A stretch of 64,000 bases of DNA, taken from contig CBDANS010000006.1 in the NCBI GenBank assembly GCA_965197745.1, positions 992,001 to 1,056,000 on the forward strand, read 5' to 3'. This document shows, one piece after another, positions 25,793 to 41,368 of the stretch; positions within the stretch are counted from its first letter, which is position 1, and every line of letters starts with the position of its first letter. The notes below the pieces were generated by a model. That model was not told the DNA's origin. It saw only the letters and a list, made by a program, of their open reading frames with translations, and did not search any database. Position numbers and translations under genes: made by a program. The DNA is from Opitutales bacterium (GTDB taxonomy: Bacteria; Verrucomicrobiota; Verrucomicrobiia; Opitutales; PNEW01).

Positions 25793-25974
25793 AAAACAGG
25801 GGCGGGTTGCTTGTTGGGATGGTATAGTGCTTCTCCATTGCTGAGTCAACGTAAGCTGCCATCACTTGTGCCGCAGTTCGATGAAAAAATAAATCTTCCA
25901 ATTGCCATATGTGTAATGTAAACCTGCACAATCTTTTTTTAAAATTATCCCATTCCACAACAAGGAGGAATACA

Positions 25975-26367
25975 ATGCCCGTAATAAGGACCAGCGAAAG
26001 TTCACTTAAGGCTACCAATCGCCCGGAAGGATGCGATAAAACATCCGCAGGAGTATTCCGCGTATTGACGACGGATGGTAAATTTGACTGTCACTATCAC
26101 GATTGTGACGAGTACTGGCTCATCTTCAAAGGTAAGGCAAAAATTCTCAGCGAAGGGAAAGAATATTACGTGAAACCGGGTGACATTGTTTTCACCAGGG
26201 CGGGAGATGAACATGATGTCATCGAAATTTATGAAGACCTGGAAGCTTTCTATTTTGAGGACGCTACTCCCGAAGGCGGAAGGATTGGCCATTTGCATAA
26301 AACCGAGGATAAAGCACACAGGCATGATGTTTCCGTCAGACCTCTACCCGCCGACTTCCCTGCTTAA
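25975..26367 (+). CDS. Cupin-domain protein
   Basis: HYHDCDEYW and PGD.....G.EH cupin motifs; AGGAGG RBS before ATG 25975. Confidence 0.85.
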   Translation: MPVIRTSESSLKATNRPEGCDKTSAGVFRVLTTDGKFDCHYHDCDEYWLIFKGKAKILSEGKEYYVKPGDIVFTRAGDEHDVIEIYEDLEAFYFEDATPEGGRIGHLHKTEDKAHRHDVSVRPLPADFPA

Positions 26368-26402
26368 TATTAAATTAAACGCATAAATAAAGTTCATTCA
26401 AT

Positions 26403-27467
26403 ATGGGTAAACCACATCGCTATATTATTGTAGGAACTGCCGGTAAGGGTGGAGATTGGTGTAGATCAACACTCCCCCGTCTTGCTGAATTAGGGAAAGC
26501 AATCCCCGCGGCGGCCGTCGATATCAACCCGGATCATTTACAAAATGCAAAAGAACACCTGGGGCTATCGCCGGATCTGTGTTTTACTGATATAAATACC
26601 GCCTTCGATAAGGTAAAAGCGGACTTCGCCATTGTTGTCACCCCACCCGAATTCCACGAGGTCGTCGTCGATGCCGCACTTGCCCATGATATGGACATCC
26701 TCTCGGAAAAACCGATCGCTGATAAGATGGAAACCTGTTGCCGTATTTATAAAAACGTCACCTCTGCGGGAAAAAAAATGGCGGTGACCATGAGTCACCG
26801 ATTCGATCAGGATAAACAATCGTTAGAAGACGTCGTGCATAGCGGAGACTATGGGCCCCTGGATTATGTGATTGGACGATTCACCATGGCCTTGCGGAAA
26901 TTCGGGGCTTGGGGCGCAAGTTTTCGTCATGAAATGGTCGACCCGCTGCTCATTGAAGGGACAGTGCACCATTTTGACATCTTTCGCGGGCTGACTAAAT
27001 CAGACTGCGAGACTGTTTACACCGTCGGCTGGAATCCCCCGTGGGGTGAATACGGTGGTGATAGCCTGGCGCTGATTACGATGAAAATGAAAAACGGCGT
27101 GAAGTGCTTCTGGGAGGGCGCTAATTGCAATGCCGTTACCCTGAACGGTTGGACTAAGGATTATCTGCGTGCTGAATGCGAAAGCGGCACGCTTGAACTT
27201 GATGCCCGGAGGTTGAGGCTGCTGAATCCCCGTATTGATGGAGAGATTAGCGGAAAGGAATTGCCCCTGATCCGCGGTGAAGTCTGGAAAAACGAGTGGA
27301 TTGCGGAGATGTATTGCGATTGGCTTTCAGGAGAAAGAGATGATCATCCCTCTCGATTGGAAGATAACATCCAGTGCGTGGCTTTACTCTTCGCCGCTGT
27401 AGAATCAGCGCACACCGGACAGCCAATTAATGTTCAGGATTTCCTGCAGCAACATTTGGATAATTAG
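26403..27467 (+). CDS. Gfo/Idh/MocA-family oxidoreductase
   Basis: VTPPEFH, ILSEKPIA, VHHFD. Confidence 0.9.
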   Translation: MGKPHRYIIVGTAGKGGDWCRSTLPRLAELGKAIPAAAVDINPDHLQNAKEHLGLSPDLCFTDINTAFDKVKADFAIVVTPPEFHEVVVDAALAHDMDILSEKPIADKMETCCRIYKNVTSAGKKMAVTMSHRFDQDKQSLEDVVHSGDYGPLDYVIGRFTMALRKFGAWGASFRHEMVDPLLIEGTVHHFDIFRGLTKSDCETVYTVGWNPPWGEYGGDSLALITMKMKNGVKCFWEGANCNAVTLNGWTKDYLRAECESGTLELDARRLRLLNPRIDGEISGKELPLIRGEVWKNEWIAEMYCDWLSGERDDHPSRLEDNIQCVALLFAAVESAHTGQPINVQDFLQQHLDN

Positions 27468-27500
27468 GTGCACCACCCCTATTAAACCCCGAAACATTTC

Positions 27501-28409
27501 ATGACCCTGACCGCAATTGTTCTGATCACGGTCTCGGCTTTTCTGCATGCAGGTTGGAATACGATCAGCAAGCGCGCACATCCCACAACCGCATATTTTT
27601 TTATTGCACTCGTTATTGGGACCTCCCTTTTCTCTCCGATTCTATTCATTAATTACCGGGAAATTTTACTGTTTCCGGCTCAGGTATGGCTCCTCCTGGC
27701 GTTGACCGGTTTATGCGAAGCCATTTATTTTATCTCGCTTTCAGCTGCTTACCGCTCGGGTGATTTATCCATAGCTTATCCACTAGCCCGATCGTCTCCG
27801 GTAATTATCGTCACTATCATCACACTCTTGCTCGGGCAGAGCGATCAATTCAGTAACCAATGCATAAGTGGGGTCGTTCTCATCTTCACCGGCAGTATTG
27901 TTCTGCCCATGCGGCATTTCACTGACTTCCGTTTAAAGAATTACCTCAACCTGACCTGCCTATTTGCTCTCTGCGCAGCTTTGGGTACGGCGGGTTATTC
28001 AATAATCGATTATACCGCGTTGAAGATTTTACGTGAGACCCCGCAAATCACCCTTGGCCCACTGGGTATCGCCTTATCCTATATTGTCGTGGAATTTTTT
28101 ATCTGTGCCTTATTGCTGGGGCTATTCATACTCTTTCGCAAAGAGCGTCGTGATGATTTGCCTCAGGTATTTCGAACCAACTTCCGCGCGGTGGTCCTGA
28201 CTGGAATAGCTTTTCTCCTGCCCTACACTTTTATTCTTACGGCGATGGCTTACGTCTCAAATGTCAGTTACGTTGTCGCTCTTCGACAACTCAGTATCCC
28301 TCTGGGTGTAATCTTTGGCGTGATGTTCTTAAAAGAACCTCGATTTATTCCCAAGTTTATCGGCACTGCCATTATTTTAACAGGATTGTTTCTCGTCGCC
28401 ATGGGATAG
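27501..28409 (+). CDS. EamA/DMT-family transporter
   Basis: SAFLHAGWN, AYRSGDLSIAYPLARSSP, YVVALRQLS, LKE. Confidence 0.9.
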   Translation: MTLTAIVLITVSAFLHAGWNTISKRAHPTTAYFFIALVIGTSLFSPILFINYREILLFPAQVWLLLALTGLCEAIYFISLSAAYRSGDLSIAYPLARSSPVIIVTIITLLLGQSDQFSNQCISGVVLIFTGSIVLPMRHFTDFRLKNYLNLTCLFALCAALGTAGYSIIDYTALKILRETPQITLGPLGIALSYIVVEFFICALLLGLFILFRKERRDDLPQVFRTNFRAVVLTGIAFLLPYTFILTAMAYVSNVSYVVALRQLSIPLGVIFGVMFLKEPRFIPKFIGTAIILTGLFLVAMG

Positions 28410-28450: not shown

Positions 28451-29215
28451 TCACAAAACGGCATACACTGCCGGAGGAAATATATCACTCACGTCACCCT
28501 CAAGGCGAAGCGAAACAGCGGGATTATCGTCGTGCTCGGTCGGGCCACGGTTAATTATGACATAAGGGACTTTTCTCCTTGAGGCCAGGAGCGGAATGGC
28601 TGCCGCAGGGTAGACGGATAGCGATGACCCCAGGGCAACCACGAGGTCTGCTTGATCCGCGGCGTTTTCCGCCGCGTCAATATCTTCACTGCGAAGGTTC
28701 TGACCAAAACTGATAGTCGCCGCTTTCAAATACCCTCCACATTCACAAAGAGGGGGCTTTGCTGTTCTCCGGAAAAAATCAAAATGGCTTTCCGGCTCAG
28801 ATCGTTGGAGACACGTTTGACACTCCACCTCGGCGTTGCTTCCGTGTAATTCAACAAGCATTGAACGTGAGGTTCCCGCCTTCTGATGTAATCCGTCAAT
28901 ATTCTGGGTTACTACACGATGCATCTTACCGGCCTTTTCCAGTTTCACAATTGTCAGGTGAACCGCGTTGGGCCGGGCGTTTTTAAAATCGTTCCACGCC
29001 TCGAGCTTATAATCCCAATGTTCGATACGCGCGCTTTCCGATCGCATGAAATCCTGGTAATAGACGGGCTGTCGCTTTGTCCATACACCCCCGGAACCAC
29101 GAAAATCGGGGATCCCGCTGTTCGTGGAAATCCCGGCCCCGGTAAAAATAAGTATTTTCCCGCTCGTTCTAAGCAGTTCGCAAAGGTGTTTGTAATCCTC
29201 TTCAACCACGTTCAC
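28451..29215 (-). CDS. cobB: Sir2-family NAD-dependent deacylase
   Basis: TGAGISTNSGIPDFRG, TQNIDGLH, ELHG, Zn cysteines, GSSL.VYPAA. Confidence 0.92.
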   Translation of the reverse strand: MNVVEEDYKHLCELLRTSGKILIFTGAGISTNSGIPDFRGSGGVWTKRQPVYYQDFMRSESARIEHWDYKLEAWNDFKNARPNAVHLTIVKLEKAGKMHRVVTQNIDGLHQKAGTSRSMLVELHGSNAEVECQTCLQRSEPESHFDFFRRTAKPPLCECGGYLKAATISFGQNLRSEDIDAAENAADQADLVVALGSSLSVYPAAAIPLLASRRKVPYVIINRGPTEHDDNPAVSLRLEGDVSDIFPPAVYAVL

Positions 29216-29218
29216 AGC

Positions 29219-30490
29219 CTATGTTGATTTGTGATTGGACACTTTAAGCAAGCAGATCCCACCCAGTAAAAACAATAGTGCCACGGCTAGCATGCCCATG
29301 CGCGGTGAACCACTCACCCTGGCTACTGTCCCCATTAAAGCAGGACCTAATAGCGCGGCAAATTTACCGACCATATTATAAAACCCAAAATAGGCGGCAG
29401 CGCGATCCGGTGGAATAATACTGGCAAAAAAAGACCGGCTGAGTGATTGGATGCTTCCCTGGACCATCCCTACAAGAAATCCAAGAATGTAGATTTCATT
29501 TATTGTTACCCCCATAATTGAGACAGGTTCAATTGAAAGGCGCGCCGCATAGAGGGTCACCCCAAGGTAAATTACAATACCCGTGAGGATTAGTTTCCTC
29601 GCTCCAAAGGACTGCCCCAACAACCCAAAAATTATGGTAAAGGGGACACCGGTAACTTGCACGATTATCAGCGTCATCATGAGATCCTTGATGGTGAAGC
29701 CCAGGCTATGGCCGAACCCTGTTGCCATCGTAATGAGGGTGTTCACGCCATCGATATAAAGCCAATAGGCAACGAGAAACCATAAAACCGTCGGTCGCTT
29801 TACAACTTCTTTTAAAATCACCCTTAATTCAATAATCCCCCCCCAAACCGCGTGCCCTATCCCTGTCTGCCGCTCACTCCGAGATTCTTTAACCGTCAAT
29901 AAAACGGGTAAACTGAAGACCATCCACCAGATGGAAACACTGAGGAATGCAACTTTTATGCCCATTGTATTATCGCTGAACCCCAAGAGTGTTGGATTAT
30001 TCACGATAACCATGTTCGCGATGAATAATAGTACGCTTCCCCCATAGCCCAAGGCAAACCCCAGGCTTGATGTGAAGTGTCGATTAGTATCATCACTGAC
30101 ATGTAGCAAAAGGGAATCATAGAAAATGTTTCCCGCCGCGAACCCGATGAAGGCCAGAATGTAAATAAAGCTGGCCAGTTGCCAGTGGCCCTTTCCCACA
30201 AAAAAAAATCCTGCTGTCGCCAGCGCTCCGAGTAGCATGAAGACACAAAGAAAAACTTTTTTGACATGTCTATGGTCGGCAATAGCGCCGAGGAACGGGG
30301 CCATCACCGCAACCAGTAAACTGGCAAAGGACACGGTGATCCCCTGCCAAAAAAGTGACTGGTCGGAACCTCCAGACCAGTAATCACGATAAAAAGGCCC
30401 AAAAAACCCGGCGATGACAATGAGGGCAAATGCCGAATTAGCCAAATCATAAAACGCCCAACTTATCGCCCCTTTGCTTAGCCGTGGCAT
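29219..30490 (-). CDS. MFS transporter (UMF1/ATG22-like)
   Basis: WAFYDLANSAF, FYDSLL, S.GFALGYGG, QSLSRSFF, FGFYNMVGKFAA. Confidence 0.88.
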   Translation of the reverse strand: MPRLSKGAISWAFYDLANSAFALIVIAGFFGPFYRDYWSGGSDQSLFWQGITVSFASLLVAVMAPFLGAIADHRHVKKVFLCVFMLLGALATAGFFFVGKGHWQLASFIYILAFIGFAAGNIFYDSLLLHVSDDTNRHFTSSLGFALGYGGSVLLFIANMVIVNNPTLLGFSDNTMGIKVAFLSVSIWWMVFSLPVLLTVKESRSERQTGIGHAVWGGIIELRVILKEVVKRPTVLWFLVAYWLYIDGVNTLITMATGFGHSLGFTIKDLMMTLIIVQVTGVPFTIIFGLLGQSFGARKLILTGIVIYLGVTLYAARLSIEPVSIMGVTINEIYILGFLVGMVQGSIQSLSRSFFASIIPPDRAAAYFGFYNMVGKFAALLGPALMGTVARVSGSPRMGMLAVALLFLLGGICLLKVSNHKST

Positions 30491-30497
30491 GATTGCA

Positions 30498-31274
30498 TCA
30501 TTGAATTTTTATCTCGACTCTTTGTCCTACCTCTAAGCCGAATTCCTTTTTTGCGTTCCCTCTATTTACCGCAATTTCCAAATAACCTCCAGAACCTTCG
30601 TAGGCAAGGGGATTGCCGTCGGCCACATTACCAAATAGTTTTGCCAGTGGAAATAAATCTTTTCCCACTAACACACGCATTTTATCAGCTTGAAACTTCT
30701 CTTCCATATCGGCGACGATGATATTAGTTATAGCATTGCCGTAGTGGTCGATGTAGACAATCTCCCCTCTCGTCTCCATCTCTTGATAATTAACTTGTGG
30801 CCAGTTCAGTGTCTCTAATTCCTCTATTCGTGGTCCAATTTCTGCGATTTTAATTCCATTGGCAAGATGCCCCGCAACGGGAGCAAAAATATCACGGCCA
30901 TGAAAAGTATGGCTGGGTCGCGCGTGGATATATTTTTGATTTTCGATCAGGTGAATTTCATAATCTCTACCCATTAAAAAAGAGAAGATACCGTTGTCAG
31001 GTCCAACCAGATAAGACTGTCCCAGGCGTATCGCAATCGCGTTTCTATCTGTTCCCACCCCAGGATCAACCACGCATAAAAAAATTGTCTGCTCGGGGAA
31101 TTCCCGAAAGCATTGAGCGAGGACGAACGCTGCCGAGCGGACATCCCCAGGCTTGATCTCATGCGTAATGTCAACACAGTTCGCGTTTGGCGAAATCCGG
31201 AGTATGCAGCCTTTCATACTGGCCACATACCAGTCTTGTCTTCCGAAATCTGTCAGGATAGCTACTGTGTTCAT
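30498..31274 (-). CDS. SAM hydrolase / SAM-dependent halogenase family (DUF62)
   Basis: LTDFG..D.YV, VVDPGVGT.R, GPDNG, TFHGRDIFAP, ID.YGN. Confidence 0.92.
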   Translation of the reverse strand: MNTVAILTDFGRQDWYVASMKGCILRISPNANCVDITHEIKPGDVRSAAFVLAQCFREFPEQTIFLCVVDPGVGTDRNAIAIRLGQSYLVGPDNGIFSFLMGRDYEIHLIENQKYIHARPSHTFHGRDIFAPVAGHLANGIKIAEIGPRIEELETLNWPQVNYQEMETRGEIVYIDHYGNAITNIIVADMEEKFQADKMRVLVGKDLFPLAKLFGNVADGNPLAYEGSGGYLEIAVNRGNAKKEFGLEVGQRVEIKIQ

Positions 31275-31351: not shown

Positions 31352-32635
31352 TTATCCTTTTATCTGGTTATAAATTCTACCGCCGATAAAGCGCGCTTCA
31401 TTCTCAAGTTGACGCTGGATTCTCAGGACTTCATTCCATTTAACGGTTCTTTCACTTCTCGCGAAAGATCCTGCTTTCAATTGACCTGCATTCGTAGCGA
31501 CAGCGAGATGATCAATAAAGGTGTCTTCTGTCTCCCCAGATCTCCCGGAAACTACCGGGAGCCATCCGGCTTCTTGCGTGCGTTTAATACAGGCAAGAGT
31601 CTCGGTAACCGTCCCAATCTGATTGAGCTTAATCAAGACACTGTTGGCTATACTTTCACTGATGCCTTTTTCAATCCGCTTTATATTCGTCGTAAACAAG
31701 TCGTCACCGATAATCTGAATCTTTTTCCCCATGGCGTGCGTGAACCGAGCCCATCCCTCCCAGTCATTTTCGGCAAGAGGGTCTTCGATTGAAACAATTG
31801 GATATTCTTCACACCATTTAACCATAAGATCACAAAATTCTGCGGAGGAATACGTTTTATTTTCCAACCCCAACTTATAACTTCCCTCAATAAAAAATTC
31901 CGTCGCCGCGATATCAAGCGATAGAGCGATATCCTTACCCGCATCATAGCCGGCTTCATTAATCGCATTGAGAAGCACGACAAAGACTTCTTCATTAGAT
32001 TCAAACACCGGCCAGTACCCTCCTTCGTCGGCCAGTCCAGCCAGCTTTCCTTTTTCTTTCATCAGACGTCCCGTATGATGATAGACATTAAAGGTCATCT
32101 CCATACATTCCTCATAGGATTCTGCCCCCACACAAATTATCATAAAATCCTGCACATCGATTCTCCCGGAACTGTGCGCACCTCCACCGAATATTTGAAT
32201 TTCTGGAATGGGAAGAAGGTTTCCCTTACCCTTGCCGAGGTAATAATAGAGCGGTTCATTCAAAGTCCTGGCGGCGGCACAAGTTGCAGCCATAGAAACT
32301 CCCAGTATGGCGTTCGCTCCCAGACGGCTTTTATTATCTGTGCCATCTAGATCGATCATTGTTTCATCAATCGTCCTCTGTTCGACGATATCTACTCCTT
32401 TTAAAACATGGTCAATTTCCGTATTCACATTTTCAACAGCTTTGAAAACCGATCGCCCAAGAAACAGTTCAGGGTTCATATCACGCAACTCAAGCGCTTC
32501 AAAGGATCCCGTCGAGGCCCCCGAGGGGACAATGGCCGACCCTCGAACTCCATTATTCAGGACCACGTCCACCTCCACCGTAGGATTTCCACGGGAGTCA
32601 TAAACCTGAAATGCTGAAATTTTATCTATTTGCAT
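31352..32635 (-). CDS. Enolase-family protein, divergent paralogue
   Basis: DSRGNPTVE, VPSGASTG, DEGG, IEDP, GDDL, IKLNQIG; non-canonical QDF and SGRSGETED. Confidence 0.9.
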   Translation of the reverse strand: MQIDKISAFQVYDSRGNPTVEVDVVLNNGVRGSAIVPSGASTGSFEALELRDMNPELFLGRSVFKAVENVNTEIDHVLKGVDIVEQRTIDETMIDLDGTDNKSRLGANAILGVSMAATCAAARTLNEPLYYYLGKGKGNLLPIPEIQIFGGGAHSSGRIDVQDFMIICVGAESYEECMEMTFNVYHHTGRLMKEKGKLAGLADEGGYWPVFESNEEVFVVLLNAINEAGYDAGKDIALSLDIAATEFFIEGSYKLGLENKTYSSAEFCDLMVKWCEEYPIVSIEDPLAENDWEGWARFTHAMGKKIQIIGDDLFTTNIKRIEKGISESIANSVLIKLNQIGTVTETLACIKRTQEAGWLPVVSGRSGETEDTFIDHLAVATNAGQLKAGSFARSERTVKWNEVLRIQRQLENEARFIGGRIYNQIKG

Positions 32636-33626
32636 AGTCTGCTAACCGCGTCACCCACCCTTGATGTATTGATACCATCTGATAATCATTACCCGGTAAC
32701 AGGTCATGGACAAAGGCACGAACATATTCTTTTTTCTCTTCATTTCCCGCGAAATACTCTACCGGTGATTTGCCATCAATGCGCGCCAGCATGAGCATAA
32801 GAAGCAGCCGCCCGGTGCGCAGCTCTAACGCTTCCCGGTTGTCTCCACTAAAATCGTTGAAATAACAGGTTAATACTTCGAGGCAAAGGGGAAGGCATTC
32901 ATCATACCGTTCTGCCCATAAGAGCGACTTCAGGTAAAGGTGGTTTAAAAGAAAAGCTAAATCAAATGCGGGATCACCATACCAGGCAACCTCCTGATCG
33001 AGAATGATAAATCTATCCTGCCCGGCCATCATATTTTTAGGACTGTAATCTCCATGGACTAAAGCTTCACGCCATCCCTTGAGTCGCTTCGCCTCCTCTT
33101 GAAAAAAAGCGCGGAGATCTGGATTTCGGTCTCCCGCGGTTACCAGATAGGGATCAATTCTTGTTGCGTTAAAACTGTCGGACGTCTGAAAAATTCTGGC
33201 GGCCTCCTTGTCATGATGAGAATGTTTATGAATCGCCGCCAGTATTTGCGCGGCCCGTTGCGCAGCTTTGACGCTGAAAATACCCTGGAGTAATTCTGAT
33301 TTCCAATTGTGGTAGCTCGCATCCAAATATTCCATAGCGAAAAATCCCAGTTCATGATTGGTGGCCAGTATTTTCGGCATGCAATCGGGGAGTATTTTTC
33401 TCACATAGTAAATGTACTCCTGTTCCACCTTATTGCGCGAAGTATCCGCATACCACTCATCCTTAACCCTTAGTTTGGCCAGCGCCTGCTTGATAACAAC
33501 TTTATGGGTGCCGTCATCAATGAGAAAAATATCGCTGGATACGCCTCCGGTCATTAGCGTAATGACATGTTCCCCCCCGGTAATAATCTTCTTATCTACC
33601 AGATAATGGATAATATCATCAGTCAT
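32622..33626 (-). CDS. APH/methylthioribose-kinase-like phosphotransferase
   Basis: GGVSS, VIKQAL.KLRV, LVHGDYSPKN, D.E.A.YGDPAFD. Confidence 0.85.
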   Translation of the reverse strand: MTDDIIHYLVDKKIITGGEHVITLMTGGVSSDIFLIDDGTHKVVIKQALAKLRVKDEWYADTSRNKVEQEYIYYVRKILPDCMPKILATNHELGFFAMEYLDASYHNWKSELLQGIFSVKAAQRAAQILAAIHKHSHHDKEAARIFQTSDSFNATRIDPYLVTAGDRNPDLRAFFQEEAKRLKGWREALVHGDYSPKNMMAGQDRFIILDQEVAWYGDPAFDLAFLLNHLYLKSLLWAERYDECLPLCLEVLTCYFNDFSGDNREALELRTGRLLLMLMLARIDGKSPVEYFAGNEEKKEYVRAFVHDLLPGNDYQMVSIHQGWVTRLADYANR

Positions 33627-33728
33627 TGCTTGGTGCTTCTCATGATCGGCGCCATTATTATACTTTTAACGGCTTGTCTTAAGACGCTAACCCTGAAAAA
33701 TAAACGCCCTTAGTCAAAATTAATAATA

Positions 33729-34304
33729 GTGAAACGTTCTGAAATCAACCTGGCTTACCTTCAGGCCAAATCATGTTTTGAAAAGAATGGATGGGCTTTG
33801 CCCCCCCAGCCTAAATGGGATATCACCGACTGCGGCCTGAGGGATTTCGAGCACTGCGGCTTGGTTCTTATAAACCTGGCGGAAGAGCCGGAGTATTGTG
33901 AAAAACTTATGTATCAGCATCATCGCCAAAAATGCCCTGCGCATTGTCATAAAAAGAAGAAAGAGGACATCATCTGCCGTCAAGGCGAGCTTGCCCTTGT
34001 CTTATGGCCGCGACACCCCAAGGACAGCGCCGAGGGCGAATCTTTTACCGCTAAAATTAATGGAGAATCGCGTGAAATAGTTGCGGGGGAAGAGGTCGTA
34101 TTAAACCCGGGTGAAAGGATCACTCTCTTCCCCGGTATTTATCACGAATTTTTCCCGTTGAGCGATGAATGTATAATGGGGGAAGTCTCTACCGCTAACG
34201 ATGATTTACATGATAATTTTTATGTGAATCCTGATATTGGCCGCTTCCCCGCGGTTGAAGAAGATGAAACGCCCCTGATCCATCTTCTTTCCGATTCCTC
34301 ATAA
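33729..34304 (+). CDS. D-lyxose/D-mannose-family sugar isomerase (cupin)
   Basis: MKRSEIN, YCEKLM, P.HCH..KKEDII, GEVSTANDD..DN.Y. Confidence 0.9.
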   Translation: MKRSEINLAYLQAKSCFEKNGWALPPQPKWDITDCGLRDFEHCGLVLINLAEEPEYCEKLMYQHHRQKCPAHCHKKKKEDIICRQGELALVLWPRHPKDSAEGESFTAKINGESREIVAGEEVVLNPGERITLFPGIYHEFFPLSDECIMGEVSTANDDLHDNFYVNPDIGRFPAVEEDETPLIHLLSDSS

Positions 34305-39448: not shown

Positions 39449-40615
39449 TCAGCCGCCGACCGCTCCCGCCAGGTTGAATATAGGCAGGAACATGGCCATG
39501 ACAATACCACCGATAACGACTCCAAGGAAGCAGATCAGCAACGGTTCCATAAGCGACGTCAACGCTTCAACCAGAACTTCGATCTCCGCATCATAGAAAT
39601 CGGATATCTTGTCCATCATCCCATCCACGTTACCCGTTGATTCCCCGGCTTTGGACATATGTTTAACCATGGGTGGGAAAAAGGGATTATTGGCTACCAC
39701 TTCAGATAACTGCCCGCCCTGGCTGATATGCCTCGTTATGTCAATTACCGCCGCTTCAATGAAGGTATTTCCGCTCGCGCGACCGACAATTGCTAACGCA
39801 TTTAATATGGGAACACCGCTCCGCATTAAAATGGCGTAGGTGCGGCAGAAACGCGAGATGGCGATTTTCTGTATCAAATTCCCGAGAACGGGTAATTTAA
39901 AAAGGACACGGTCCTTCCCTATGCGCCCTTTGGGGGTGCTGATTACTTTCATAAGTACCTTATAAAATACGATTAAAGCAATAATGATATAGATAATATA
40001 AGATTTAAGAAAATCACTGAGATCAATGAGCATCTGAGTGGGCTTGGGCAGTTCCTGGCCAAAATCCGCGAACATTTCGGCAAATACAGGAATGACAAAT
40101 ACAAGGAGGACATTGACTAATCCGACGGCCAAACAAATAACGGCCACAGGATAAGTCATCGCTCCCTTTACCTGCCTGGATAGTTTAACACTTTCTTCAA
40201 AATAGACTGCCACCTTGCCGAGAATATCGGCGAGTCCTCCACTCGCTTCACCTGCCTCGACCATAGAGATAAAAAGGTTGGGGAAGGCATTCGGATATTT
40301 GCGGACCGCGTCTGAAAATGATGTTCCACTGGATACATCAGTTCTGACCTCTCGAATAATAATTTGAAAAACAGGTTCTTCCGCTTGCTCCTGAAGCGCT
40401 TCAAGAGCAGAAACGAGAGGAAGTCCCGCTTCCAGCATGGATGCCAGTTGCTGGGTAAATACAGCAAGCTGGTCGAGCTTTATTCTCTTTTTCTTGGATT
40501 GTTTCTCGTAAGCTTTTTGTTTTGCGAGCTTCTGTGACTCCATGAAGCTCATTTTCTTCCCAGGAGCCCCTCCTCCTACTTGGGATGGTGATGCACTCGA
40601 AGATATTAATGCCAT
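39449..40615 (-). CDS. Type II secretion F / PilC-family inner-membrane platform protein
   Basis: FTQQLASMLEAGLPL, AGEASG.L, AMTYP, GESTG, EP..I...G..IG.IV.AMFLPIF. Confidence 0.92.
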   Translation of the reverse strand: MALISSSASPSQVGGGAPGKKMSFMESQKLAKQKAYEKQSKKKRIKLDQLAVFTQQLASMLEAGLPLVSALEALQEQAEEPVFQIIIREVRTDVSSGTSFSDAVRKYPNAFPNLFISMVEAGEASGGLADILGKVAVYFEESVKLSRQVKGAMTYPVAVICLAVGLVNVLLVFVIPVFAEMFADFGQELPKPTQMLIDLSDFLKSYIIYIIIALIVFYKVLMKVISTPKGRIGKDRVLFKLPVLGNLIQKIAISRFCRTYAILMRSGVPILNALAIVGRASGNTFIEAAVIDITRHISQGGQLSEVVANNPFFPPMVKHMSKAGESTGNVDGMMDKISDFYDAEIEVLVEALTSLMEPLLICFLGVVIGGIVMAMFLPIFNLAGAVGG

Positions 40616-40726: not shown

Positions 40727-41368
40727 TTATTCGCTGTCTTTATTTAACCGACGTTGTGGTAAAGACTTGCGCGCGTTTTCTCTCTCCTGGTGTGAGATTT
40801 CCCCGTCACCGTCGGTATCGAACCGTTTAAGCCTGTCTTTTCTTGACTGTTCAGCATGTTCTTTTTCTCCATCTGACAAGATCCCATCGTTATCCAGGTC
40901 GAATCGCTCCATCATTTTTTTCCGGTGCTGCGATCTCTCCCCCTGCATCGTCTCCCGAGCTACAGCCCTCTCTTCATCTGACAGCTCTCCATCCCCGTCT
41001 CTGTCGAAGCGTTTAATCATCCGTTCTCTAAATTCTCTTCCCCGCTGGGGCATCTCCCGGCGGGCATGCTCTCGCTCTATGTCAGAGAGTATACCGTCCC
41101 CATCTTTATCAAATCGCTCCAGCATGCGCTCATGGTGGGCCCCATCCCGGTTCCCACGCATCTCGGTTTTTGCCCTTTCTTTTTCCGCTTCCGAGATGGT
41201 TCCATCGCTATCGGTGTCATATTTTTCCAGAAATCGGGTGTGTGCCGGCCGATTATCCCCATTTTTATCAGCGAGTTCTGCACGTAGGCTGATTCCACTT
41301 AAGATGAGAATACCCGTGAGTATCAACCCTCCCATCCAAATTTGATTATTGCTGTATTTTAACATCAC
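40727..41368 (-). CDS. Secreted EF-hand protein
   Basis: Five DxDxDGxI/LSxxE loops, N-terminal signal peptide. Confidence 0.85.
   Translation of the reverse strand: MMLKYSNNQIWMGGLILTGILILSGISLRAELADKNGDNRPAHTRFLEKYDTDSDGTISEAEKERAKTEMRGNRDGAHHERMLERFDKDGDGILSDIEREHARREMPQRGREFRERMIKRFDRDGDGELSDEERAVARETMQGERSQHRKKMMERFDLDNDGILSDGEKEHAEQSRKDRLKRFDTDGDGEISHQERENARKSLPQRRLNKDSE

What the first reader, a model, noticed from the sequence alone, without database searches (positions are those of the whole stretch)
31352..34304. Altered-site enolase paralogue coupled to an MtnK-like kinase and a divergent sugar isomerase: possible new sugar-acid pathway
Seen: the enolase keeps the metal ligands (LDIAA, IEDP, GDD), the catalytic Lys (IKLNQ) and Glu (DEGG). 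It changes otherwise near-invariant pocket residues: QEF to QDF (yeast E168 equivalent), SHRSG to SGRSG (H373 equivalent), and NxxNGG to QIFGGG. Its start overlaps the stop of an APH/MtnK-fold kinase, and a D-lyxose-isomerase-family gene is transcribed divergently. Inference: an enlarged pocket near C3 would suit a longer 2-phospho-aldonate made by the kinase, i.e. a kinase/dehydratase route rather than glycolysis.
Basis: partly seen in the sequence, partly recalled or inferred. Interest (0 to 1): 0.7.

Follow-up and report, generated by a model that had tools for sequence, protein, structure and literature searches.

The report
Kinase-coupled variant enolase gene pair
A small-molecule kinase gene overlaps a second, altered copy of the glycolytic enzyme enolase; the pair recurs across many bacterial phyla, nobody has characterised it, and it most likely feeds a glycerate-like acid from sugar breakdown into phosphoenolpyruvate.

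Summary
Window 31352-32635(-) encodes an enolase that keeps the metal ligands, the Lys base and the Glu acid. It has Asp for yeast Glu168 and Gly for His373. Its start overlaps the stop of an APH/MtnK-fold kinase by 14 nt. A D-lyxose-isomerase-family gene lies divergently.

The pair is conserved. Of 124 kinase loci with enough downstream DNA, 116 carry an enolase directly downstream, and all 116 lack the His. A fused kinase-enolase protein exists.

This is the only enolase in this assembly. However, a canonical enolase, P0253, carries the same contig figures (3 contigs, longest 3,106,837 bases) as the identical variant protein. The absence is therefore probably an assembly gap.

Recurrent neighbours are an aldehyde dehydrogenase, a class-I-aldolase-like protein, the cupin isomerase and a ketohexokinase. 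Together they suggest hexose to triose aldehyde to C3 acid to 2-phospho acid to PEP.

The substrate is unresolved. Glycerate or a close analogue is favoured, and a longer aldonate is less likely. Seven literature searches found no description of the pair. Earlier notes of this scan report the same module in other genomes.

The parts
31352..32635 (-). Variant enolase, 427 aa. Metal ligands, Lys base, Glu acid and phosphate/carboxylate binders are kept. Yeast Glu168 is Asp (D163), His373 is Gly (G364), and there is a new Arg158 in the mobile loop.
   Evidence: TIGR01060 546 bits; canonical relatives score 642-695; PDB alignment; clade-specific columns; clade invariants.
32622..33626 (-). APH/MtnK-fold small-molecule kinase, 334 aa, translationally coupled to the enolase.
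   Evidence: AlphaFold model pLDDT 94.1. Best Foldseek match is MtnK 2pyw_A, TMq 0.84 at 16% identity. The kinase motifs HGDxSPKN and DxE are invariant in 42 homologues.
32622..32635 (-). 14-nt overlap of the kinase stop and the enolase start.
   Evidence: sequence read directly. The same overlap geometry is seen in G001 (ORFs 7637-8920 and 8907-9911).
33627..33728 (.). 102-bp divergent intergenic region between the kinase and the isomerase; presumed shared control region.
   Evidence: Coordinates. The promoter-like hits are no more frequent than in shuffles (7 found, 7.4 expected), so function is inferred only.
33729..34304 (+). Cupin aldose-ketose isomerase of the D-lyxose/D-mannose isomerase family, 191 aa.
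   Evidence: PF07385, 1.5e-47. (NF051472, 113 bits against a cut-off of 350). (3kmh, E 1.4e-23). Homologues 58-61% identical lie directly downstream of the variant enolase in L038, L049, L068, L092 and L104, and upstream in L152.

Best explanation
The kinase and the variant enolase form a two-step funnel.
- The kinase phosphorylates the 2-hydroxyl of a small 2-hydroxy acid. This is most likely glycerate or a close three-carbon analogue, such as its L-enantiomer or a 3-O-/3-substituted form.
- The variant enolase abstracts the C2 proton with the retained Lys. It expels the C3 substituent with the retained Glu and gives phosphoenolpyruvate.

The acid would come from sugar or sugar-acid catabolism. 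In the fullest operons the route is: cupin isomerase (aldohexose to ketohexose), ketohexokinase, class-I-type aldolase (DHAP plus a triose aldehyde), aldehyde dehydrogenase (aldehyde to acid), and then this pair. In the window only the pair and the divergent isomerase are present.

Shown:
- the gene anatomy;
- the conserved pairing and the fusion protein;
- the retained catalytic set and the altered pocket;
- the neighbour families.

Inferred:
- the position that is phosphorylated;
- the identity of the acid;
- PEP as the product.

The enzyme is not this organism's housekeeping enolase.
For: 1. Pairing.
- 116 of 124 kinase loci with at least 1.3 kb downstream carry an enolase starting within -50 to +700 bp on the same strand (36 of 160 loci were too short to judge).
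- All 116 read S[A/G]RSGE and none reads SHRSGE.
- P0501 is a 770-aa APH + Enolase_N + Enolase_C fusion.

2. Retained chemistry.
- S41, H154, Q162, E204, D241, E284, D311, K336, R365, S366 and K387 are invariant in 40 variant enolases.
- These are the yeast S39, H159, Q167, E211, D246, E295, D320, K345, R374, S375 and K396 equivalents. The yeast numbering is recalled.
- The substrate is therefore still a metal-bound 2-phospho-carboxylate.

3. Altered pocket around C3: D163 in 70/70, A/G364 in 70/70, R158 in 59/70, W208 in 69/70.

4. Neighbours.
- ALDH lies immediately upstream of the kinase in 12 loci of set 1 and 8 of set 2.
- Aldolase-like c10 sits before the ALDH in L049, L063, L068, L083, L104 and L152.
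- The isomerase and a PfkB/Khk kinase are in the same operons.
- G019, from another family of the order, has kinase-enolase-DeoC aldolase-GFO-PfkB.
- In L131 a complete oxidative set sits next to the pair: SDR, FAH, SDR, SMP30 lactonase, epimerase and IlvD/Edd. The pair then fits best on the hydroxy-acid end product.

5. Not housekeeping.
- G001, G002, G019 and G040 hold a canonical enolase as well.
- G209 and G044, the two other kinase-positive genomes among 301 of the phylum sample, also have canonical-scoring enolases.
- P0253 is on record with the same contig figures as the variant.

6. G000 already has a GarK-type glycerate kinase (331 bits). The APH kinase is thus not needed for plain D-glycerate.
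Against: - No biochemical data exist and no ligand modelling was possible.
- The G000 assembly contains no other enolase. If that absence is real, the variant must also turn over D-2-phosphoglycerate.
- Neighbourhoods are heterogeneous, and most loci show only the bare pair.
- ALDH is adjacent in only about 20 of 160 loci, and the isomerase is present in 8 of 160.
- Several neighbour sets are those of 6-deoxyhexose pathways, whose end product is lactate. These include FAH with SDR and lactonase, an HpcH aldolase, a fucosidase and RhaT. An enolase cannot use lactate.
- Both carboxylates next to C3 are kept. This argues against anionic leaving groups but does not separate D- from L-glycerate or a C4 acid.
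- One kinase homologue is fused to a UxuA mannonate dehydratase (P0472). That is compatible with an aldonate substrate.
Confidence: 0.6

Rival explanations
1. Ordinary isozyme pair. The kinase is a new type of D-glycerate 2-kinase, and the variant is simply a co-expressed 2-phospho-D-glycerate enolase. This would be the lower branch of non-phosphorylative sugar catabolism.
For: - TIGR01060 scores 546 bits, above the cut-off.
- All metal, base, acid and phosphate-binding residues are kept.
- A mannose-type isomerase, a ketohexokinase and an aldolase would yield D-glyceraldehyde, and a GH130 mannoside phosphorylase lies beside the pair in L086.
- It is the only enolase in the G000 assembly.
- Earlier scan notes report D-2-hydroxyacid dehydrogenase partners in other lineages (not tested here).
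Against: - Two positions invariant in all 30 canonical enolases examined are replaced in 70 of 70 His-less ones.
- Near-obligate linkage and a fusion are unexpected if the intermediate is a free central metabolite that the canonical enzyme already handles.
- All six other genomes shown here to hold the kinase or a second, non-canonical enolase also keep a canonical-scoring enolase: G001, G002, G019, G040, G209 and G044.
- G000 also has a GarK-type kinase.
Confidence: 0.18
2. The kinase makes a 2-phospho-aldonate of four or more carbons, and the variant enolase dehydrates it to a phosphoenol-2-keto-3-deoxy acid. This would be a phosphorylative alternative to sugar-acid dehydratases.
For: - Shortening Glu168 and removing His373 enlarges the space next to C3 while keeping the acid catalyst.
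- SDR aldose dehydrogenase and SMP30 lactonase neighbours make aldonates.
- A UxuA-kinase fusion, P0472, exists.
- HpcH 2-keto-3-deoxy-acid aldolases lie nearby in several loci.
Against: - Classical dehydratases co-occur with the pair: IlvD/Edd in L131 and MR/MLE in L083.
- The product would need a further phosphoryl-transfer enzyme, which is never seen in the operons.
- The ALDH and aldolase core predicts a C3 acid.
- The pair often stands alone.
Confidence: 0.12
3. A desulfonating or other anion-eliminating route. For example, sulfolactate from sulfoquinovose would go to 2-phospho-3-sulfolactate and then to PEP plus sulfite. A 3-O-sulfo- or 3-phospho-glycerate analogue is a variant of the same idea.
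For: - The set isomerase, PfkB kinase, DeoC/LacD-type aldolase and ALDH mirrors sulfo-EMP logic. This comparison is recalled, not tested.
- A new Arg158 in the active-site loop is present in 59 of 70.
- Sulfatases lie nearby in some loci.
Against: - No GH31 sulfoquinovosidase, sulfite exporter or sulfite oxidase appeared among about 200 neighbour ORFs annotated.
- Neutral-sugar MFS transporters lie beside the operons (L076; L104; L151).
- Both carboxylates facing C3 (D163, E204) are invariant, which disfavours an anionic leaving group.
- The ALDH is not GabD-like by its best PDB and NCBIfam hits.
Confidence: 0.07
4. It is this organism's housekeeping enolase, which happens to sit next to an unrelated kinase.
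For: No other enolase or enolase remnant is present in the 4.45-Mb, 7-contig assembly.
Against: - P0253 (SHRSGET, QEF) is 87% identical to G001's canonical enzyme. It is recorded on 3 contigs with a longest contig of 3,106,837 bases, the same figures as the 100%-identical variant P0001.
- The completeness estimate is 92.3%. A one-contig relative scores only 94%.
- The linkage to the kinase is conserved in 116 of 124 loci.
Confidence: 0.03

Closest known systems
Canonical enolase / phosphopyruvate hydratase (EC 4.2.1.11; TIGR01060; Pfam PF03952 + PF00113), e.g. PDB 9no2, 4mks, E. coli 1e9i
   Same: The two-domain architecture and length are the same, and the protein scores above the TIGR01060 cut-off. 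The metal ligands, Lys base, Glu acid, Arg/Ser phosphate clamp and Lys/Gln carboxylate binders are conserved.
   Different: - Identity to canonical enolases of its own order is 46.5-49%, against 61-83% to other variant members.
- Yeast Glu168 is Asp, and His373 is Ala or Gly.
- The Asn of NGG is Gly, and the mobile loop carries a new Arg/Trp.
- GDEGG becomes ADEGG with a following Trp, and IKTG becomes LK(V/A)G.
- The N- and C-terminal charge pair is changed.
- It is always kinase-linked and is an extra copy beside a canonical one.
5-Methylthioribose kinase MtnK (TIGR01767; PDB 2pyw, 2olc)
   Same: MtnK is the best structural neighbour of the kinase model (Foldseek E 1.2e-17, TMq 0.84). It is also the best NCBIfam and PDB sequence hit. 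The kinase shares the APH-type catalytic loop.
   Different: Identity is only 14-16%. The score of 65.7 bits is far below the equivalog cut-off of 275. The protein is about 60-80 residues shorter. No methionine-salvage genes are adjacent, and its partner is an enolase.
Glycerate 2-kinase plus enolase, the lower branch of non-phosphorylative Entner-Doudoroff, glucarate and serine-cycle routes
   Same: The proposed logic is the same: aldehyde or hydroxy acid to 2-phospho acid to PEP, fed by an aldolase and an aldehyde dehydrogenase.
   Different: Known glycerate kinases belong to the GarK/GlxK, MOFRL or P-loop families rather than the APH fold. They hand their product to the ordinary enolase. 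G000 has a GarK-type enzyme as well.
D-lyxose/D-mannose isomerase (PF07385; NF051472; PDB 3kmh)
   Same: The window's divergent gene has the same cupin fold family and hits 3kmh at E 1.4e-23.
   Different: It scores 113 bits against an equivalog cut-off of 350. It is shorter (191 aa against a 227-position model), and its substrate is unknown.

Membership tests
Enolase (EC 4.2.1.11, TIGR01060) | Whole-protein HMM score above the curated cut-off | tested here: met
   546.4 bits against a cut-off of 300. Canonical enolases of 36 related genomes score 642-695 bits.
Enolase (EC 4.2.1.11, TIGR01060) | Metal ligands (yeast D246, E295, D320), base K345, acid E211, and phosphate/carboxylate binders R374, S375 and K396 | tested here: met
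   All are present in the window protein and invariant in 40 variant sequences. The yeast numbering is recalled.
Enolase (EC 4.2.1.11, TIGR01060) | Glu at yeast position 168 and His at position 373 | tested here: not met
   The window protein has Asp163 and Gly364. In one search the canonical set has Glu and His in 30 of 30, and the His-less set has Asp in 70 of 70 and Ala/Gly in 70 of 70.
Enolase (EC 4.2.1.11, TIGR01060) | Interconverts 2-phospho-D-glycerate and PEP as the cell's glycolytic enzyme | not testable with these tools
   This needs an enzyme assay or complementation. Indirect evidence: G001, G002, G019 and G040 also hold a canonical enolase; G209 and G044 do too; P0253 covers this species.
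MtnK, 5-methylthioribose kinase (TIGR01767) | Equivalog HMM score above the cut-off | tested here: not met
   65.7 bits against a cut-off of 275.
MtnK, 5-methylthioribose kinase (TIGR01767) | APH/protein-kinase-like fold closest to MtnK | tested here: met
   Model pLDDT is 94.1. The top 13 listed Foldseek chains are MtnK entries or an MtnK model, with TMq up to 0.84.
APH phosphotransferase family (PF01636) | Pfam gathering score, with the catalytic HGD...N loop and DxE metal site | tested here: met
   49.6 bits against 23.2. H191, G192, D193, N198, D210 and E212 are invariant in 42 homologues.
D-lyxose/D-mannose isomerase (PF07385 / NF051472) | Pfam family membership | tested here: met
   162.1 bits against 20.8.
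D-lyxose/D-mannose isomerase (PF07385 / NF051472) | NCBIfam equivalog score (same function as characterised enzymes) | tested here: not met
   113.2 bits against a cut-off of 350.
Sulfoglycolysis (sulfo-EMP-like) cluster | A sulfoquinovosidase (GH31) and sulfite export or oxidation genes beside the catabolic enzymes | tested here: not met
   None appeared among the neighbour ORFs annotated. The defining gene set is recalled.

The most novel reading that the evidence does not exclude
The variant is an enantiomer-specific enolase. The kinase would make 2-phospho-L-glycerate from L-glycerate, and the variant enolase would convert it to the achiral PEP.

L-glycerate would be the C4-C6 end product of L-galactose-type oxidative pathways and of reductive uronate catabolism, or the oxidation product of L-glyceraldehyde. 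This would close L-hexose catabolism with a mirror-image use of the enolase acid/base pair.

The reading would explain three things:
- why the kinase product cannot be left to the ordinary, strictly D-specific enolase;
- why the two genes are almost never separated and are sometimes fused;
- why the pair sits beside lactonase/SDR/FAH sets, and inside a porphyranase/agarase locus of Microbulbifer (L056).
Probability: 0.2. Interest if true: 0.85.

Novelty: new variant of a known kind. Interest (0 to 1): 0.62.

Why it matters
Enolase is regarded as a one-function family with an invariant active site. Here a large branch replaces two of those positions and is locked to a kinase. The kinase family has 511 clusters at 50% identity with E at or below 1e-30. 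About 580 species-level loci were found in one scan.

Public sources that name members of this branch call them phosphopyruvate hydratase or enolase. Metabolic reconstructions of Verrucomicrobiota, Planctomycetota, Acidobacteriota and marine Bacteroidota therefore miscount glycolytic enolases and miss a catabolic step.

Identifying the substrate would add a new reaction to the enolase family. It would probably also supply a missing end of one or more sugar or sugar-acid pathways. The proposal is directly testable with two recombinant proteins and commercially available acids.

Tried and rejected
- **Complex prediction.** Complex prediction for kinase plus enolase was not available, so physical association or channelling is untested.
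- **Synteny around the canonical eno.** I tried to decide between a gap and a loss using the flanks of G001's canonical eno. Only 2 ORFs of the 18-kb G001 region had G000 matches at E < 1e-20: the canonical eno itself (hitting the paralogue) and one other gene. This was uninformative.
- **Paralogue-only genomes.** The five lowest-scoring enolase genomes of the phylum sample have 43-49%-identical, non-variant enolases.
- **Phylum-wide enolase census.** The output was truncated before the weaker matches. In addition, 63 of 301 genomes gave no match at E 1e-60, so negatives from that tool are weak.
- **First metagenome scan.** The single kinase sequence as query found nothing. The alignment query worked.
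- **Aldolase-like neighbour c10.** It had no Pfam, NCBIfam or PDB-profile hit. Only the language-model atlas named it, as fructose-bisphosphate aldolase at score 0.98. This is a lead, not a proof.
- **Aldehyde dehydrogenase typing.** PDB and NCBIfam searches gave only generic ALDH hits.
- **Sulfolactate idea.** It was considered and down-weighted; see the rival explanations.
- **Promoter and terminator scans.** Promoter-like sites were at shuffle level and terminator-like sites within one sd of it.
- **Literature.** Seven searches found no description of the pair. I read only passages of one preprint, 10.64898/2026.05.18.725363. It concerns CpgD, does not mention enolase, and shows only that 2-phospho-L-glycerate can be bought.
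Full report
**Anatomy**

The window holds three ORFs exactly as reported.
- An enolase at 31352-32635 (-), 427 aa.
- A kinase at 32622-33626 (-), 334 aa.
- A divergent cupin gene at 33729-34304 (+), 191 aa.

Family scans assign them as follows.
- The enolase matches Enolase_N and Enolase_C and scores 546 bits on TIGR01060 (cut-off 300).
- The kinase matches APH. Its best NCBIfam hit is MtnK at 65.7 bits, far under the 275 cut-off.
- The cupin matches Lyx_isomer and scores 113 bits on NF051472 (cut-off 350).

The minus-strand junction reads ...GCAGACTATGCAAATAGATAA... Here the enolase ATG lies 14 nt before the end of the kinase stop codon.

A DUF62-type SAM hydrolase, an Atg22-like MFS transporter and a Sir2 deacylase follow on the same strand with gaps of 77, 7 and 3 bp. 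These are not conserved partners elsewhere. A SAM-hydrolase homologue was seen in 1 of the first 80 loci.

**Active site**

The alignment to solved enolases and the translation show all the retained motifs: SGASTG, GGGAH, ADEGG, LDIAA, SIEDP, GDDL, IKLNQ, RSGET and LKAG. The differences are QDF for QEF, SGRSGET for SHRSGET, and QIFGGG for NxxNGG.

I aligned 30 canonical enolases of related genomes with 70 His-less ones (68 kinase-linked loci plus the G001 and G002 paralogues). Columns that are at least 90% conserved in the canonical set but held by at most 10% of the His-less set include:
- E163D, in 70 of 70;
- H364A/G, in 67 + 3 of 70;
- N150G, in 69 of 70;
- P158R, in 59 of 70;
- G202A, in 70 of 70;
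- A208W, in 69 of 70;
- T388V/A, in 69 of 70;
- a changed pair at R9 (aromatic) and E408 (Arg).

In 40 variant sequences the whole metal, base, acid, phosphate and carboxylate set is invariant. So this is a working enolase-type catalyst for a 2-phospho-carboxylate, with a rebuilt surrounding of C3. The yeast numbering and residue roles are recalled textbook knowledge, not tool results.

**A distinct, widespread branch**

The 120 best database homologues are 61-100% identical. Among them 111 have S-A-RSGET, 7 have S-G-RSGET and 2 did not match the pattern. QDF occurs in 113 of 120. Named members are all labelled phosphopyruvate hydratase or enolase. They come from Balneolales, Microbulbifer, Seonamhaeicola, Reichenbachiella, Rhodohalobacter and others.

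The window protein is only 46.5-49% identical to canonical enolases of its own order.

I built an IQ-TREE of 102 enolases.
- The 31 His-bearing sequences lie on one side of a branch with SH-aLRT 100.
- 66 of the 71 His-less sequences form a clade with support 95.
- Two Atribacterota sequences and three long branches (L115, L036, L037) fall outside that clade.
- The window's protein groups with G001/G002 (support 100) and then with Balneolaceae and Saprospiraceae (support 92), not with other Verrucomicrobiota. I read this as horizontal spread, which is an inference.

One caveat applies. The canonical sample comes from one order only, and the root is unknown.

**Link to the kinase**

An alignment of 42 kinase homologues retrieved about 580 species-level loci in genome contigs and about 590 in metagenome contigs. 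Eighty loci were kept from each collection.

Of these 160 loci, 36 end less than 1.3 kb after the kinase. Of the remaining 124, 116 have an enolase gene starting within -50 to +700 bp downstream on the same strand, and 8 have none. All 116 read SARSGE (114) or SGRSGE (2).

The carriers span Verrucomicrobiota, Planctomycetota, Acidobacteriota, Bacteroidota, Balneolota, Chloroflexota, Atribacterota, Myxococcota and Pseudomonadota.

A search of 1.84 billion cluster representatives found 511 kinase relatives at E <= 1e-30. One of the best 150, P0501 (770 aa), is an APH-Enolase_N-Enolase_C fusion. Two other fusions were seen: UxuA-kinase (P0472) and NTP_transf_3-kinase (P0375).

The kinase model is confident (pLDDT 94.1). 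Its nearest solved folds are MtnK (TMq 0.84, 14-16% identity), then PsiK and LxmK. 'MtnK-like' is therefore correct for the fold, not for the function.

**Is it the only enolase?**

In the G000 assembly (4.45 Mb, 7 contigs, 92.3% complete) it is.
- The family search found one match over the cut-off.
- tblastn with three canonical enolases at E <= 10 found only the variant.

Three facts weigh against a real absence.
- The same-family genomes G001 and G002 carry both a canonical enolase (676 and 672 bits) and the variant (557 and 553 bits). G019 and G040 also have a second, more divergent copy.
- The G001 locus has the same 13 ORFs as the window, in the same order, on the same strands and with near-identical lengths.
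- A search with G001's canonical enolase returned P0253. It is 87% identical, reads SHRSGET/QEF, and is recorded on 3 contigs with a longest contig of 3,106,837 bases. These are exactly the figures recorded for P0001, the 100%-identical copy of the window's variant.

I conclude that an organism with the identical variant also has a canonical enolase. Its absence from G000 is most likely an assembly gap. This rests on matching contig statistics, not on seeing the contig itself.

In a sample of 301 genomes of the phylum, the kinase was found in 3: G000, G209 and G044. G209 and G044 both have canonical-scoring enolases.

**Neighbourhoods**

Most loci show the bare pair. The commonest addition is an aldehyde dehydrogenase immediately upstream of the kinase. 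It is present in 12 loci of set 1 and 8 of set 2.

The fullest operons (L049, L068, L104, L152, and in part L038, L063, L083, L092, L166) contain:
- an AraC regulator;
- a 340-aa protein with no Pfam, NCBIfam or PDB-profile hit, which the protein atlas places with 'fructose-bisphosphate aldolase' and DeoC/DUF2090 clusters;
- the ALDH;
- the kinase;
- the variant enolase;
- a cupin isomerase 58-61% identical to the window's;
- a PfkB or 'prokaryotic ketohexokinase' gene.

G019 has GntR-kinase-enolase-DeoC/LacD aldolase-GFO oxidoreductase-PfkB.

Other recurrent neighbours:
- SDR aldose dehydrogenases, SMP30 lactonases and FAH hydrolases. L131 adds an epimerase and an IlvD/Edd dehydratase.
- HpcH aldolases, aldo-keto reductases and sugar MFS or ABC transporters.
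- A FucI-like isomerase in L135 and L141.
- DgoK/DgoA in L128.
- A GH130 protein, a fucosidase and sulfatases.
- Porphyranase and agarase genes around ALDH-kinase-enolase in Microbulbifer sp. HZ11.

No sulfoquinovosidase or sulfite-handling gene was seen among these.

**Reading**

The conserved pairing and the fusion say that the kinase product is the enolase substrate. The invariant catalytic set says that this substrate is a 2-phospho-carboxylate that loses a C3 substituent with acid help.

The sequence aldolase, ALDH, kinase, enolase points to a three-carbon acid with PEP as product. So does the frequent stand-alone occurrence of the pair.

Plain D-glycerate is possible, but it leaves three things unexplained:
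- why two otherwise invariant pocket residues are replaced throughout;
- why the genes are never separated;
- why G000 also has a GarK-type glycerate kinase (no MOFRL type).

I therefore favour glycerate or a close analogue, with the exact species open. The L-enantiomer is the most interesting candidate. It is weakened by co-occurring classical dehydratases and by the lack of a follow-up enzyme. Anionic leaving groups are disfavoured by the two retained carboxylates and by the absence of sulfo-pathway genes.

**Relation to earlier notes and to print**

Eight earlier notes of this scan describe the same kinase-variant-enolase module in other genomes and reach a similar 'glycerate-like acid to PEP' reading. 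They are AI notes, not independent evidence.
- I re-derived the pairing, the altered residues and the existence of fusions myself.
- I did not see the D-2-hydroxyacid dehydrogenase partner that they report.

Seven literature searches returned no paper on the pair, as far as that open library reaches.

**Verdict**

This is a real, conserved and uncharacterised variant of a very well-known enzyme, with a plausible but unproven role. It has been found repeatedly by this scan. In this window its special points are the divergent isomerase and the apparent lack of a canonical enolase, which is probably an assembly artefact.

Noticed in passing
window 28451-31274 (-): A DUF62-type (R)-SAM hydrolase (258 aa), an Atg22-like MFS transporter (423 aa) and a Sir2/CobB deacylase (254 aa) follow the enolase on the same strand, with gaps of 77, 7 and 3 bp. 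The layout looks like an operon and is the same in G001. It is not conserved in other kinase-enolase loci.
   Followed up: partly
G000 whole assembly; P0253: The assembly lacks a canonical enolase. P0253, a canonical enolase, carries the same contig statistics (3 contigs, longest 3,106,837) as the identical variant P0001. This is probably an assembly gap, and it could mislead metabolic reconstruction of this genome.
   Followed up: partly
window 25909-28409 (+): A small cupin (152 aa), a GFO/IDH/MocA oxidoreductase (354 aa) and an EamA transporter lie head to tail. The transporter is nearest to TIGR03340, 'phosphonate utilization associated' (184 bits, below cut-off). The layout is conserved in G001 and the function is unknown.
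   Followed up: no
window 40727-41368 (-): A 213-aa protein is built of about six repeats of an EF-hand-like motif (RFD.DGDG.LSD.E...). It probably has a signal/TM start and lies next to a GspF/PilC-like gene (39449-40615).
   Followed up: no
P0472, P0375: Kinase homologues occur fused to a UxuA mannonate dehydratase (720 aa) and to a MobA-like nucleotidyltransferase (519 aa; 48% identical to the window kinase). These may point to other substrates, or to a nucleotide-activated product in some subfamilies. In L106 a kinase with no enolase sits beside PfkB, HAD and cytidylyltransferase genes.
   Followed up: partly
L053:3091-4812 (+): A RuBisCO-like protein (573 aa) lies directly downstream of the kinase-enolase pair in an Opitutaceae MAG.
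   Followed up: no
L036 (G019), L037 (G040): A still more divergent second-enolase clade scores about 430 bits on TIGR01060 and sits on long branches. G019's copy is kinase-linked and reads SARSGET. G040's copy has lost the RSGET and QxF motifs and sits beside an IS110 transposase and sulfatases.
   Followed up: partly
L056 (Microbulbifer sp. HZ11): ALDH-kinase-variant enolase is embedded between two porphyranases, an agarase-CBM protein, CBM6 proteins, an MFS transporter, an SMP30 lactonase and a sulfatase. This suggests a link to red-algal galactan (L-galactose or 6-O-methyl-galactose) use.
   Followed up: partly
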